DNA from: Promethearchaeota archaeon
GTDB lineage: Archaea; Asgardarchaeota; Lokiarchaeia; Sigyniarchaeales; SOKP01
Reading direction: 5' to 3'
Length of the DNA stretch: 43,578 bases
Assembly: GCA_016840165.1 (NCBI GenBank)
Contig: JAEOSU010000100.1
Span: 1 to 43,578, forward strand
A program made the position numbers and the translations under genes. Shown one piece after another: positions 24,415 to 30,010 of this stretch. Within the stretch, counting starts at the first letter, position 1, and every line of letters starts with the position of its first letter. The notes beneath the pieces were generated by a model. It did not search any database, had not been told where the DNA came from, and saw only the letters and a list, made by a program, of their open reading frames with translations.

Positions 24415-25977
24415 CTATTGATGATTAACTAATTCACCATATCCAATTAATCTATAGCGTCTATTGATAATCCTTGAGATGGCAAAGATGAAGTCTTCAG
24501 GTGGGCATATAGGAGGGTTAAGTTTAAGGATATAAGAATTCTTTAAAATTTTAACTACTGTTCCACCTGTTTTTTCTGTTCCCACGACTAATAATAATTT
24601 CTCATTATGTTTCAATTCAGATACCTTTATTTGGATCTCTGATCCGATTACCCTATCAAGTAAATTAACGTTAAGTTCTATTTCAGAGAGTACTTCAGGG
24701 AGAGAATTGGGTCTCCCAACCAATTGACCTATGAGTGAATCCCCCTTAGTAAGTGCGGGATCTAATTTCGTACCCAGCCCAATTAAACCTCCGGGTTTAG
24801 CTGTTTCTAATAGATTACTTCCTTGGTTAATACTGATCAATTTGGTCCGGATGGGTATATAATTATTTTTTATTCGCAAACCTGGCTTGATTTCAATCTC
24901 CTCTCCGATTTTTATATTTCCCTTTAAAACCGAACCACCAATTACTCCACCCTTCAATGAACTAATTTCGGTACCAGGTCTATTAATATCAAACGAGCGT
25001 GCAATGAGAAATTGAAAATTTTCATCTTCATCAAGATGAGGAGTGGGAATAAGTTCTTCAAAAGCCCTTACGACGAGATTAATATTAGCTCCAAATACTG
25101 CAGAAATAGGAATAATTGGAGCATTTTCAGCTACAGTTCCTTTTATAAAATCTTTAATTTGCTTATAATTTTCTTGAGCTTGTTCTTTTGAGACTGCATC
25201 AATCTTGTTCTGGATGATAATAATCTCTTTAATGCCAGCAATATTTAGTGCAGCTAAATGCTCTCTTGTTTGAGGTTGTGGACACTCTTCATCAGCAGCT
25301 ATTAATAAACACGCCCCATTCATTAGAGAGGCTCCACTGAGCATTGTCGCCATAAGGATCTCATGCCCGGGAGCATCTACGAATGAAATATTCCGTTGAA
25401 ACTCTAAGTTATCCCCACAATTAGGACACGAAAATCTAGGTTTCCCCTTTTCTCGTTGAGCTTCTGCCATATGATAAGTTAAATATTTATCGCATATTGG
25501 ACAATATAAGATTGTAGCGTTCGAATATCCAAGCTTGATCGAAATTCCTCTTTCTTGCTCTTCAGAATGTCGATCGGTCCAGTCCCCAGAAAGAGCTTTG
25601 ACTAAAGTAGTTTTACCGTGATCTACGTGCCCTACTAAACCAATATTACACTCTGCTTGCTGTTTCATTAATTCTTTTATCTTTTTTGCCTTTTCTGAAG
25701 AGAAATTAGATGAAGAGGCTTTCTTTGTTTCCCTAGGCCCTTTTATAGGAGTTTGTTCTTCTGAAATAGAGGTTGTTTCTTGTATTTGTTTAAGCAGTTC
25801 CTTTGCATTATTAATATACTTAATCGCAGTAGCTTCTCCTACACCTTTTATGTTTAACTTTAATAAATTATTTGGATCAGCTCCAGCTAATTGTTCTACT
25901 GTTTCAATTCCCGCTTTTTTAATTCTTTCCGCAGTAGCTTTTCCGATTCCCGTGATATCTTCTAAATCGTATGGCAT
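24415..25977 (-). CDS. eif2g: Translation initiation factor aIF-2 gamma with an N-terminal helix-hairpin-helix extension
   Basis: NIGLVGHVDHGKTTL, RGISIKLGY, Zn knuckle, DAPGHEILMATMLSGA, QNKID, RSFDINRPG, RYRLIGYG; N-terminal ITGIGKATA and IKGVGEATA. Confidence 0.96.
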   Translation of the reverse strand: MPYDLEDITGIGKATAERIKKAGIETVEQLAGADPNNLLKLNIKGVGEATAIKYINNAKELLKQIQETTSISEEQTPIKGPRETKKASSSNFSSEKAKKIKELMKQQAECNIGLVGHVDHGKTTLVKALSGDWTDRHSEEQERGISIKLGYSNATILYCPICDKYLTYHMAEAQREKGKPRFSCPNCGDNLEFQRNISFVDAPGHEILMATMLSGASLMNGACLLIAADEECPQPQTREHLAALNIAGIKEIIIIQNKIDAVSKEQAQENYKQIKDFIKGTVAENAPIIPISAVFGANINLVVRAFEELIPTPHLDEDENFQFLIARSFDINRPGTEISSLKGGVIGGSVLKGNIKIGEEIEIKPGLRIKNNYIPIRTKLISINQGSNLLETAKPGGLIGLGTKLDPALTKGDSLIGQLVGRPNSLPEVLSEIELNVNLLDRVIGSEIQIKVSELKHNEKLLLVVGTEKTGGTVVKILKNSYILKLNPPICPPEDFIFAISRIINRRYRLIGYGELVNHQ

Positions 25978-28673: not shown

Positions 28674-28753
28674 AATTAATGATCAATATTTATTTTAATA
28701 TAACAAATTATCTTAATAATTATAATCATGATAAATTTTCTTCTATGAGATTT

Positions 28754-29053
28754 ATGACAGAAGATAATCAAAAAAAAGAAGTACATCCTATAGTTAAGAA
28801 AGCGCTTGAGATGACATATACGGGTGTTGAACCTATTCAATTCGATGATTATGCGATTGAACAATTAGAAGATATGCTAAAGGATCGCTTTGGTAAACCT
28901 GATCTACTTAAGGCGGTTGTTGACCTCATCAATTTGGCAAGAGTGCTTGAGGAAAAAGGATGCAATTCAGCATCAATGAAACTTATTATAGTAGCAAGTA
29001 CTGCTGCTGAGGCTCTTCAGAAACAATTTAAGAAGGAAGGAATAAAAACTTAA
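28754..29053 (+). CDS. Hypothetical helical protein (~100 aa; ORF open from 28679)
   Basis: Protein-like composition from MTEDNQ onward; start uncertain (28745 or 28754). Confidence 0.7.
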   Translation: MTEDNQKKEVHPIVKKALEMTYTGVEPIQFDDYAIEQLEDMLKDRFGKPDLLKAVVDLINLARVLEEKGCNSASMKLIIVASTAAEALQKQFKKEGIKT

Positions 29054-29212
29054 TTCAAATTTATTATATTTCAACTCAAATAATCGATTGACTAAATTAA
29101 ATTTTAATAAAATTTAATTAATAAGCTACACTACTTCTAAATACTTTAGACCGAATAAGGAAACATTTTATCGAAAATATTGCTCCTTATTGTTTGGTCT
29201 TGTGTGGAATTC

Positions 29213-29388
29213 TTAACCACATATTTATCTCAAAAAGCGCCGGAAGTTAAACTGTTTCGCGTTGCATCAAGTACTATAGTTGCGATCTATGGGAACATGC
29301 AAACTGTAGCTTTGGCTACGGTCATGGTGATGCAGGATATACCCGGTCCCATCCCGAACCCGGAATCGCTTTCTTTATATGTGGTTAA
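29213..29388 (+). other. Processing stem with a bulge-helix-bulge-like motif enclosing the permuted 5S rRNA
   Basis: TTAACCACATAT 29213-224 / ATATGTGGTTAA 29377-388; AAAGCG 29234-239 / CGCTTT 29367-372; central CCGG 29240-243 / CCGG 29360-363; bulges AAG 29244-246 and AAT 29364-366. Confidence 0.85.
29246..29365 (+). rRNA. rrf: 5S rRNA gene, circularly permuted (3' half 29246-29311, then 5' half 29314-29365)
   Basis: 5' half GGCTACGGTCAT...ACCCGGTCCCATCCCGAACCCGGAA and 3' half GTTAAACTG...AGTA...GGGAAC...CTGTAGC. All helices form: I 29315-321/29304-310; II 29327-335/29252-260; III 29343-346/29360-363 with loop C UCCCAUCCCGAAC; UUGCAU/AUGCAA; loop E AGUA/GAA; CUAUAG/CUAUGG. Total 120 nt. Confidence 0.93.
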
Positions 29389-29458
29389 CAATAATCCTAT
29401 ATAAAGTTAAACTCTTTTAAAAAAAAACGTTTTTAAGCGATATTTCTAATTAGATCTT

Positions 29459-30010
29459 ATGTTCCAAAAGTTATTATTAATATTAAAATCAATTGGACGT
29501 AAATGGTTTCTCATTTTTATTATAATAATATTATTCATCTTTTTGATTAATCCAGAATTCGCCATATGGATGATTATCATAACGATAATTTTATATCTCG
29601 CATCCTTTATTCCTAATTTATTCTTTTCAAATAGATTCACTCGATATATAAAGAAGTTTCATTCGATAGAAGATAAGGACCTCATGAAAAAATTCAACAA
29701 ACCACTTAGAAAAATACAAGAAACGCTTTTTGATCTCTCACAGAATCAAAAGAAAAAAGATTGGGTCATCATTTATCTAAATAAGCATTATATAATTTAT
29801 AATGAGGAGATTATAGAAAAATTTAAAGAGCTTTATAATAGTGGTTTTGGAGAAAAAGAAATCTTGGAGAATCTACAATCCTACGGGATAAAAACAAGAG
29901 CTGAAATAAAAGCGATAACGGACACATTAATTAAATATGATAAATTAGAGGAGAGAGACGTATCAGTAAAAACCCATCGCAATGAACAACGTTTTAAGGA
30001 ATCTGATTAA
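29459..30010 (+). CDS. Hypothetical membrane protein (two N-terminal TM helices plus a soluble helical domain)
   Basis: Hydrophobic residues 15-56, then a charged domain. Confidence 0.8.
   Translation: MFQKLLLILKSIGRKWFLIFIIIILFIFLINPEFAIWMIIITIILYLASFIPNLFFSNRFTRYIKKFHSIEDKDLMKKFNKPLRKIQETLFDLSQNQKKKDWVIIYLNKHYIIYNEEIIEKFKELYNSGFGEKEILENLQSYGIKTRAEIKAITDTLIKYDKLEERDVSVKTHRNEQRFKESD

What the first reader, a model, noticed from the sequence alone, without database searches (positions are those of the whole stretch)
29246..29365. Circularly permuted 5S rRNA gene
Seen: an intergenic 120-nt segment holds both halves of an archaeal-type 5S rRNA in reverse order. The 3' half (GTTAAACTG...CTGTAGCT, 29246-29311) precedes the 5' half (GGCTACGG...CCCGAACCCGGAA, 29314-29365). 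Reordered, every 5S helix pairs and loop C (CCCAUCCCGAAC) and loop E (AGUA/GAA) are intact, so it does not look decayed. The break lies just after the conserved AA bulge of helix III. Established: permuted genes are known for tRNAs (Cyanidioschyzon merolae, Thermofilum pendens) and SRP RNA (Thermoproteus). I do not know of a genomically permuted 5S rRNA gene. Inference: this is the functional 5S gene, and linear models would miss it or call it partial.
Basis: partly seen in the sequence, partly recalled or inferred. Interest (0 to 1): 0.97.

Follow-up and report, generated by a model that had tools for sequence, protein, structure and literature searches.

The report
Permuted 5S rRNA gene, splice-motif flanked
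This archaeon's only 5S ribosomal RNA gene is written with its two halves in swapped order between cut-and-join signals of the tRNA-splicing enzymes, so the working RNA is most likely cut out and joined, probably into a closed ring, and standard annotation tools miss it.

Summary
Window 29246-29365 (+) holds a complete archaeal 5S rRNA in the order 3' part, 4-nt loop, 5' part. Rfam sees only a 25-nt sub-threshold piece. A profile of colinear 5S genes from the sister family gives two swapped partial hits on the native DNA and one full-length 50-bit hit after reordering.

The 99.7 %-complete genome has no other 5S gene. The flanks form a canonical bulge-helix-bulge (BHB) motif. Its predicted cuts fall exactly at 29245/29246 and 29365/29366. 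Joining the ends recreates the universal ...CCCGGAA-GUUAAAC... sequence. The genome encodes two EndA paralogues and RtcB.

A covariance model of the permuted layout finds one copy in 87 of 100 genomes of the family (12 of 13 genera). Both the 5S helices and the BHB show compensatory changes. Across the phylum (apparently Asgard/Promethearchaeota), permuted and colinear genes exclude each other family by family.

- Relatives within the same genera use a second breakpoint that yields the same circle.
- Several relatives carry 30-nt BHB mini-introns at four sites in the gene.

No RNA data were available, so ligation and a circular mature form are inferred. This scan has already noted the same arrangement in at least 55 other genomes. 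I found no published archaeal case.

The parts
29185..29197 (+). TATA-like promoter element (CCTTATTGTTTGG); inferred
   Evidence: A CTTAT(G/A)AAATGG-type element lies 28-30 nt upstream of the AACCAC leader helix in 12 related loci. Its promoter function was not tested.
29213..29224 (+). Leader arm of the long outer processing helix (TTAACCACATAT)
   Evidence: It is perfectly complementary to 29377-29388 and is paired in the MFE and in the BHB-constrained fold. The AACCAC/GTGGTT arms are conserved in most of the family.
29234..29239 (+). BHB outer helix h, 5' strand (AAAGCG)
   Evidence: It pairs with 29367-29372. The three pairs next to the bulge are paired in at least 97 % of 39 loci, with changes on both sides in 16, 6 and 7 sequences.
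29240..29243 (+). BHB central 4-bp helix, leader strand (CCGG), a copy of the helix III 5' strand
   Evidence: It pairs with 29360-29363. The second pair covaries across 39 loci: C-G 22, U-A 14, U-G 3.
29244..29246 (+). 5' bulge AAG; predicted cut between 29245 and 29246
   Evidence: This is the canonical BHB geometry: a 3-nt bulge 3' of the central helix strand, cut after its second base (established knowledge of EndA substrates). The cut site coincides with the first base of the 5S sequence.
29246..29365 (+). Permuted 5S rRNA body, 120 nt. In order: loop B/helix II 3' strand, helices V-IV with loop E, helix I 3' strand, UUUG loop, helix I 5' strand, helix II 5' strand, helix III with loop C.
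   Evidence: Searches show the homology. One search shows 89.6 % of cells paired and 26 of 41 pairs with compensatory changes, with 0 of 500 shuffles reaching this.
29311..29314 (+). UUUG tetraloop joining the native 3' and 5' ends (closes helix I, 29303-29310 with 29315-29322)
   Evidence: In relatives the loop is UUCG, UACG, UUAG, CUCG and similar. Helix I is paired in 99.7 % of cells.
29357..29363 (+). BHB inner helix (AAC, pairs with 29246-29248) and central helix 3' strand (CCGG, the helix III 3' strand)
   Evidence: One search shows 98.9 % of cells paired. One search puts the BHB conformer at -52.8 kcal/mol against an MFE of -54.5.
29364..29366 (+). 3' bulge AAT; predicted cut between 29365 and 29366
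   Evidence: The third bulge base varies freely among relatives (T, A, G or C), as expected for an unpaired base.
29367..29372 (+). BHB outer helix h, 3' strand (CGCTTT)
29377..29388 (+). Trailer arm of the long outer helix (ATATGTGGTTAA)
29430..29434 (+). Oligo-T run, likely transcription terminator (inferred)
   Evidence: A run of five or more T's lies 7-48 nt (mostly 26-48) after the GTGGTT arm in most related loci.

Best explanation
This is the organism's single, functional 5S rRNA gene, encoded as a circular permutation.

Shown:
- The 120-nt body holds every 5S helix and loop, in the order 3' part, tetraloop, 5' part.
- The break lies right after helix III (…CCGGAA | GUUAAAC…).
- Leader and trailer fold into a long stem that ends in a canonical bulge-helix-bulge motif. 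The motif has an outer helix AAAGCG/CGCUUU, a 4-bp central helix CCGG/CCGG, 3-nt bulges AAG and AAU, and a short inner helix.
- The motif is conserved with compensatory changes.
- The genome encodes the splicing endonuclease (two paralogues) and the RtcB ligase.

Inferred:
- A precursor of about 215 nt is transcribed from a TATA-like element to an oligo-T run.
- EndA cuts after the second base of each bulge, releasing exactly 29246-29365.
- RtcB joins the two new ends, which restores the continuous helix III/loop B strand of a normal 5S rRNA.
- Helix I is already closed by a stable 4-nt loop with no spacer to remove, so the product is most likely a covalently closed 120-nt circle that enters the ribosome as such.
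For: - Homology and completeness.
- Only 5S in a 99.7 %-complete genome. It is single copy.
- The only two colinear 5S hits in the family sit next to bacterial-type 23S rRNA, so they are contaminant contigs.
- Conservation: 22 of 24 genomes of the genus; 87 of 100 genomes and 12 of 13 genera of the family, including one-contig genomes.
- Covariation in the mature helices: 26 of 41 pairs compensatory, 89.6 % paired against 34-45 % when partners are slid.
- BHB conformer: 99 % paired, all three outer pairs and one central pair covary, slid controls 10-53 %.
- The BHB conformer is within 1.7 kcal/mol of the MFE.
- The predicted joined sequence is the same string found in ordinary colinear 5S genes of unrelated organisms.
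- Second breakpoint: 12 relatives in four genera, three of which (including this one) also hold the first class, use a break 2 nt after the helix III 5' strand. It has its own BHB and gives the identical circle, which only makes sense if the ends are joined.
- Ligation in the helix I loop: one relative carries a 30-nt BHB intron inside the helix I loop, so that loop is itself made by ligation (intron boundaries read by eye).
- Enzymes: EndA twice and RtcB once in the genome.
- Precedent: the permuted SRP RNA of Thermoproteus is cut at a BHB by EndA and stays circular (PMC4731332).
Against: - No RNA evidence of any kind was available: no transcript, no junction read, no circle.
- The metagenome scan for the joined sequence found only ordinary 5S genes of other organisms.
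- The inner helix of the BHB is only 2-3 bp.
- CCGG is a palindrome, so the unconstrained MFE pairs the leader CCGG with the other CCGG of helix III.
- Part of the central-helix covariation is confounded with helix III's own covariation.
- Alignment A3 was fitted to the model, which inflates pair counts.
- The literature states that archaeal 5S, unlike 16S and 23S, is not processed through circles (PMC12918454), although that statement rests on species with colinear genes.
Confidence: 0.8

Rival explanations
1. The gene and BHB-dependent ligation are as above, but the circle is only an intermediate. It is reopened in the helix I loop to give a conventional linear 5S rRNA, as happens for permuted tRNAs of Cyanidioschyzon and for circular pre-16S and pre-23S rRNA.
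For: Permuted tRNAs and archaeal pre-rRNAs pass through circles that are later opened (PMC4267664 citing Soma 2007; PMC12918454 background). Nothing in the sequence forbids a cut in the loop.
Against: - There is no spacer between the native ends, only a 4-nt loop that is mostly UNCG-like, which is a stabilising loop and not a processing site.
- No enzyme is known to trim archaeal 5S there.
- In G076 the loop is created by splicing out an intron, that is by ligation.
- The Thermoproteus SRP RNA stays circular (PMC4731332).
Confidence: 0.15
2. The precursor is cut at the BHB or trimmed, but never ligated. The ribosome then uses a linear, permuted 5S rRNA with its ends beside helix III, comparable to the permuted mitochondrial 5S rRNA of brown algae.
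For: Permuted 5S rRNAs that stay permuted in the final product exist (PMC4267664). Helix I closed by a hairpin loop is shared with them.
Against: - The nick would lie in the most conserved part of the molecule.
- It would sit at different places in close relatives: class 1 after CCGGAA, class 2 inside loop C.
- The leader carries a copy of the helix III strand whose only evident use is to build a BHB.
- EndA products are the natural substrates of RtcB, which is present.
Confidence: 0.04
3. The arrangement is an assembly artefact (a collapsed tandem 5S array) or a decaying pseudogene.
For: Most genomes are metagenome bins. One distant genome (G221) has several copies at contig ends.
Against: - The flanks are unique non-5S sequence with their own conserved structure.
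- The same layout occurs in about 90 independent assemblies, including single-contig genomes.
- An independent Logan assembly shows the same gene order and the same size of intergenic gap around the locus; no DNA was returned for that contig.
- There are compensatory substitutions throughout.
- The genome has no other 5S gene.
Confidence: 0.01

Closest known systems
Circularly permuted SRP RNA gene of Thermoproteus tenax (Plagens et al. 2015, PMC4731332)
   Same: An essential, universally conserved structural RNA is encoded in permuted order. Its termini lie next to a functionally important loop and are embedded in a BHB cut by the tRNA-splicing endonuclease. Ligation restores the normal sequence. 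There the product was shown to be a stable circle that binds its proteins.
   Different: The RNA is different (5S rRNA, a ribosome component). The distribution is far wider: whole families across a phylum, not a few species. Breakpoints vary and extra BHB introns occur. No RNA data exist here.
Circularly permuted tRNA genes (Cyanidioschyzon merolae, Thermofilum pendens; Soma 2007 as cited in PMC4267664)
   Same: The 3' half precedes the 5' half, a BHB lies at the termini, and processing goes through a circular RNA made by the splicing machinery.
   Different: In tRNAs a spacer joins the native ends, and RNase P and tRNase Z reopen the circle. Here the native ends are joined by a bare tetraloop and no reopening activity is evident.
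Permuted mitochondrial 5S rRNA of brown algae and other stramenopiles (Valach et al. 2014, PMC4267664)
   Same: It is a 5S rRNA whose helix I is closed as a hairpin and whose ends lie elsewhere. Standard 5S models miss it.
   Different: There the ends lie at the junction of domains alpha and gamma, there is no BHB, and the mature RNA itself is permuted and linear. Here the break lies beside helix III/loop C and a BHB predicts religation.
Circular and circularly permuted archaeal 23S rRNA (PMC7758197; PMC12918454)
   Same: BHB-dependent excision and RtcB ligation of an rRNA. The circular or permuted form is reported inside ribosomes.
   Different: Those genes are colinear and the circle joins the natural ends. 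Here the gene order itself is permuted and ligation is needed to rebuild an internal helix.

Membership tests
5S rRNA (Rfam RF00001) | Score at or above the Rfam gathering threshold on the genomic sequence | tested here: not met
   The best hit is 23.7 bits against a cut-off of 38, covering only model positions 27-51. This is expected for a permuted gene.
5S rRNA (Rfam RF00001) | Full-length colinear similarity to 5S rRNA once the halves are reordered | tested here: met
   A profile HMM of 11 colinear 5S genes matches at HMM 4-114, 50.0 bits, E 1e-16. The reordered sequence aligns end to end with colinear genes. The Rfam CM itself could not be run on a rebuilt sequence.
5S rRNA (Rfam RF00001) | Three-way junction with helices I-V supported by covariation; loop C and loop E motifs | tested here: met
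   89.6 % of cells are paired, 26 of 41 pairs are compensatory and 0 of 500 shuffles reach this. Loop C matches the Rfam consensus perfectly. The AGUA/GAA loop E blocks are in register.
5S rRNA (Rfam RF00001) | It is the genome's 5S gene (no other copy) | tested here: met
   No other RF00001 hit at E of 10 or below in the 99.7 %-complete genome. The permuted model gives one hit.
BHB-processed permuted RNA genes (permuted tRNA, Thermoproteus SRP RNA) | Termini embedded in a bulge-helix-bulge motif: a 4-bp central helix with two 3-nt bulges on opposite strands, plus flanking helices | tested here: met
   The coordinates are listed under parts. 99 % of cells are paired, with compensatory changes in the outer and central helices across 39 loci. 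The inner helix is short (2-3 bp).
BHB-processed permuted RNA genes (permuted tRNA, Thermoproteus SRP RNA) | Joining the predicted cut ends restores the canonical sequence of the RNA | tested here: met
   The doubled circle is read through the junction by the colinear 5S profile. The junction string occurs in ordinary 5S genes.
BHB-processed permuted RNA genes (permuted tRNA, Thermoproteus SRP RNA) | Splicing endonuclease and RtcB ligase encoded by the organism | tested here: met
   PF01974 hits twice (102 and 72 bits) and PF01139 once (556 bits) in the genome.
BHB-processed permuted RNA genes (permuted tRNA, Thermoproteus SRP RNA) | Circular or ligated RNA detected experimentally | not testable with these tools
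   No transcriptome data were available. The metagenome scan returned only genomic colinear 5S genes of other organisms.
Permuted mitochondrial 5S rRNA (mtPerm-5S, PMC4267664) | Ends at the alpha/gamma domain junction, with the mature RNA remaining permuted | tested here: not met
   Here the break lies in the beta domain beside helix III and is flanked by a BHB that predicts religation. This locus is not a member of that family.

The most novel reading that the evidence does not exclude
Ribosomes of this archaeal family, and of many other Asgard lineages, contain a covalently closed circular 5S rRNA. Because the product is a ring, the position of the gene's ends has become selectively neutral. 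That would explain why breakpoints switch between two sites within single genera, and why 30-nt BHB mini-introns come and go at four or more sites, including one that leaves a 7-nt micro-exon.
Probability: 0.5. Interest if true: 0.9.

Novelty: new variant of a known kind. Interest (0 to 1): 0.82.

Why it matters
5S rRNA is universal, and its gene is assumed to be colinear and easy to find in every cellular genome. Here whole families of the closest archaeal relatives of eukaryotes encode it permuted. That explains published failures to find 5S genes in complete Asgard genomes (PMC8813620).

It also makes an essential ribosomal RNA dependent on the tRNA-splicing endonuclease and ligase, and it predicts an end-less 5S rRNA inside the ribosome.

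The sister family has ordinary, unprocessed 5S genes. This gives a natural comparison for asking how and why the switch happened.

On the practical side, annotation pipelines and genome-quality criteria that count 5S genes will mis-score these genomes unless they use a permuted model.

Tried and rejected
- **Rfam on the native sequence.** It gave only a sub-threshold partial hit. The Rfam CM could not be run on a rebuilt sequence because Infernal is not in the Python box, so I used a profile HMM instead.
- **Scan of genome contigs for the helix I junction pattern.** It returned 3 bacterial matches, about the number expected by chance, and none of the relatives, whose records seem to be withheld there.
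- **Scan of metagenome contigs for the ligated junction, hoping for RNA-derived or tandem contigs.** All 9 hits were ordinary colinear 5S genes of other organisms. This gives no evidence on circular RNA either way.
- **Thermodynamic folding alone.** It does not single out the BHB, because the MFE pairs the leader CCGG with the other CCGG. The z-score of the circular fold (-1.2) is uninformative.
- **Colinear 5S hits in two genomes of the family.** I rejected them as evidence for a second gene, because both lie beside bacterial-type 23S rRNA.
- **The mechanical ORF 29180-29404.** I did not pursue it. RNA-type covariation explains the conservation.
- **Taxon name.** It could not be obtained directly. 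The assignment to Asgard rests on an atlas cluster for aIF2-gamma and on the genome sizes of sister-family members.

Full report
**1. The observation**

The segment 29246-29365 lies in a 405-nt gap between two ORFs. It is a GC peak (0.48) in DNA of about 27 % GC.

- Rfam's gathering scan of the whole window and ARAGORN find nothing.
- With permissive thresholds, the only credible match is RF00001 positions 27-51 at 29341-29365. This is a perfect helix III/loop C that stops at the claimed breakpoint, at 23.7 bits against a cut-off of 38.
- Infernal cannot be run on a rebuilt sequence here, so I built a profile HMM from 11 colinear 5S genes of the sister family.
- On the native DNA the HMM gives two partial hits in swapped order: HMM 47-115 at 29241-29309 and HMM 4-51 at 29317-29365.
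- On the reordered sequence it gives one full-length hit (50.0 bits, E 1e-16). It also reads through the joined ends of the doubled circle.
- The reordered RNA aligns end to end with those colinear genes (51-62 % identity) and folds into the five 5S helices.

**2. Is it the working gene?**

- The genome (99.7 % complete, 105 contigs) has no other RF00001 hit, even at E of 10.
- Blastn finds the same locus in 22 of 24 genomes of the genus.
- A covariance model of the permuted layout (R1) finds a permuted locus in 87 of 100 genomes of the family, one hit in nearly all. These cover 12 of 13 genera and include one-contig genomes.
- Over 39 loci with this breakpoint, 89.6 % of cells in the 5S helices are standard pairs, against 34-45 % when partners are slid. 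Of 41 pairs, 26 show changes on both sides, and no shuffle of 500 reaches this. The alignment was fitted to the model, which inflates these numbers somewhat.
- Only two genomes of the family have a colinear 5S hit above the Rfam cut-off. Both hits lie directly beside a bacterial-type 23S rRNA, so they are contaminant contigs.
- An independent Logan assembly shows the same gene order and the same size of intergenic gap around the locus; no DNA was returned for that contig.

Misassembly and pseudogene readings are therefore excluded for practical purposes.

**3. The flanks**

The leader and trailer have these parts:
- A 12-bp outer stem: 29213-29224 with 29377-29388.
- A 6-bp helix: AAAGCG 29234-29239 with CGCTTT 29367-29372.
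- A 4-bp central helix: leader CCGG 29240-29243 with CCGG 29360-29363, the 3' strand of helix III.
- Two 3-nt bulges, each 3' of its central-helix strand: AAG 29244-29246 and AAT 29364-29366.
- A 2-3 bp inner helix: 29246-29248 with 29357-29359.

This is the canonical bulge-helix-bulge substrate of the archaeal splicing endonuclease (established knowledge). Cutting after the second bulge base releases exactly 29246-29365.

Across 39 loci this conformer is paired in 99 % of cells, against 10-53 % in slid controls.
- The three outer pairs change on both sides in 16, 6 and 7 sequences. Examples are GCG/CGC, ACG/CGU, UCU/AGA and CAU/GUG.
- The second central pair switches between C-G (22), U-A (14) and U-G (3).
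- The third base of the 3' bulge varies freely.

The constrained BHB fold is 1.7 kcal/mol above the MFE. The MFE instead uses the other CCGG of the palindromic helix III.

Joining the ends gives ...GAACCCGGAA-GUUAAAC.... A scan of metagenome contigs for that joined string returned nine hits, all of them ordinary colinear 5S genes of other organisms. So the ligated product carries the universal 5S sequence. The same result means I obtained no RNA-level evidence.

The genome encodes two EndA paralogues and one RtcB.

**4. Transcription unit (inferred)**

- A CTTAT(G/A)AAATGG-type element lies 28-30 nt upstream of the leader stem in a dozen relatives. In the window it is 29185-29197.
- An oligo-T run follows the trailer stem. 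In the window it is 29430-29434.
- Colinear 5S genes of the sister family instead have a TATA box about 25-30 nt before the mature 5' end and a T-run right after the 3' end. Their leader and trailer show no comparable complementarity.

**5. What relatives add**

(a) A second breakpoint.
- Twelve loci use it, in four genera. Three of them, including this genus, also contain class-1 genes.
- They begin ...GCG-CYGG-AA|C-CAUCCGAAC... and end ...ACCCGG-UC|N-CGC....
- The break then lies inside loop C. The leader CYGG pairs with the 5' strand of helix III, and the outer helix covaries again (for example AACA/UGUU in G089).
- Both gene forms predict the same circle. This is hard to reconcile with an unligated product.
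- A genome of another family (G026) appears, by eye, to break in loop B.

(b) BHB mini-introns of 30 nt occur at four sites. I read the boundaries and the BHB geometry by eye.
- In helix IV: CUGCAA|...|UUG, whose removal reproduces the intron-less sequence of a relative.
- In loop D: UUGCGA|U.
- In loop C: CCGAA|CCC, which leaves a 7-nt last exon before the terminal BHB.
- In G076, inside the helix I loop: CUGUAA|GUUUGC.

(c) The loop that joins the native ends is 4 nt and mostly UNCG-like (UUCG, UACG, UUUG, UUAG, CUCG), with no spacer.

Points (a), (c) and the G076 intron favour a mature circle over a reopened one. None of them proves it.

**6. Distribution**

- In the order, families f1, f3 and f4 have the permuted gene. 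Family f2 has colinear genes above the Rfam cut-off in 12 of 14 genomes, including one-contig genomes of 4.4 and 6.0 Mb.
- In a sample of 151 genomes of the phylum, R1 hits 53 genomes in 15 families and RF00001 passes its cut-off in 49 genomes in 7 families.
- Only one family has hits to both models. That is G221, whose copies lie at contig ends and which read as permuted when inspected.
- Thirteen loci from 12 other families (two of them from G221) that I read directly are all permuted with a BHB-type stem.
- Some families match neither model.
- The phylum is apparently Asgard/Promethearchaeota, judged from the atlas cluster of the window's aIF2-gamma.

**7. Literature and earlier notes**

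- The paper library holds no archaeal permuted or circular 5S rRNA.
- Permuted 5S is described only for stramenopile mitochondria. There it has no BHB and the final product is permuted (PMC4267664).
- A 2026 paper states that archaeal 16S and 23S, but not 5S, are processed through circles (PMC12918454).
- The Heimdallarchaeum genome paper reports that 5S genes could not be predicted (PMC8813620).
- The closest precedent is the permuted, BHB-processed, circular SRP RNA of Thermoproteus (PMC4731332).
- Earlier notes of this scan report the same arrangement in at least 55 other genomes, and the BHB and tetraloop on this very stretch. I reached the BHB reading before opening those notes and tested the phylum-wide claim in part.

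**8. Verdict**

This is a genuine, conserved, sole 5S rRNA gene in permuted order, flanked by a covariation-supported BHB. Excision and ligation by EndA and RtcB is the best-supported mechanism (confidence 0.8).

A circular mature 5S is the most likely end state (about 0.5-0.6) but is unproven. I class it as a new variant of a known kind, namely BHB-processed permuted RNA genes, here applied to a ribosomal RNA and fixed in large clades.

Noticed in passing
L023, L024, L092, L082 (same genus); L075, L077-L081 (genus g12); L076 (g18); L074 (g17): There is a second breakpoint class of the permuted 5S gene. The break lies 2 nt after the helix III 5' strand, inside loop C, and has its own BHB. Three of the four genera that hold it (g1, g12, g17) also hold class-1 genes, so breakpoints have switched repeatedly or are polymorphic. 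How the DNA rearranges is unknown.
   Followed up: partly
L059, L064 (helix IV); L069, L077-L079 (loop D); L012, L016, L017, L021, L065, L067, L072, L085, L091, L073 (loop C); L073 = G076 (helix I loop): BHB mini-introns, about 30 nt wherever I delimited them, interrupt the permuted 5S gene at four different sites. The loop C intron leaves a 7-nt terminal exon (CCCAGAA) between two BHB cut sites. G076 carries two introns plus the terminal BHB (a 208-nt locus). Boundaries were read by eye, not tested.
   Followed up: partly
L031 (G073:C68) and L132 (G015:C263): These are the only colinear 5S genes above the Rfam cut-off in the family. Both sit next to bacterial-type 23S rRNA (one with a group I intron), so they are bacterial contaminant contigs in these bins.
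   Followed up: yes
L032-L042 (sister family f2): The colinear 5S genes of the sister family are multi-copy (up to 3 per genome). They have a TATA box about 25-30 nt before the mature 5' end and a T-run right after the 3' end, and leader and trailer show no comparable complementarity. Their transcripts need essentially no end processing, in contrast to the permuted family.
   Followed up: partly
phylum sample, families f5, f15, f16, f23 and others: Several families, including near-complete one-contig genomes of 1.4 and 2.8 Mb, match neither the colinear Rfam model nor the permuted model. Their 5S genes remain unidentified and may have other breakpoints or more introns.
   Followed up: no
window 24415-25977 (-): The aIF2-gamma homologue (GTP_EFTU + eIF2_C) carries an N-terminal helix-hairpin-helix domain (HHH_5, residues 4-53). 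An atlas cluster of 195 proteins, mostly Promethearchaeota, shares this architecture.
   Followed up: no
window 28679-29053 (+) and 29459-30010 (+): The two ORFs that flank the 5S locus (124 aa and 183 aa) have no Pfam match. The same gene order with a Peptidase_C25 protein upstream and a PAS/GAF protein downstream recurs in an independent Logan assembly.
   Followed up: no
leaders of L004-L010, L011, L075-L082 and others (about 20 nt before the BHB): Many relatives carry an extra small hairpin in the leader, between the outer stem and the BHB (for example GUAGC-loop-GCUAC or GUGC-loop-GCAC). This makes a three-way junction. The window's own leader lacks it.
   Followed up: no
L130, L131 (G221, family f27): The permuted 5S gene is present in about four copies, all at contig ends. 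It is a repeated locus that breaks the assembly, and RF00001 reaches 38.4 bits on one copy.
   Followed up: partly
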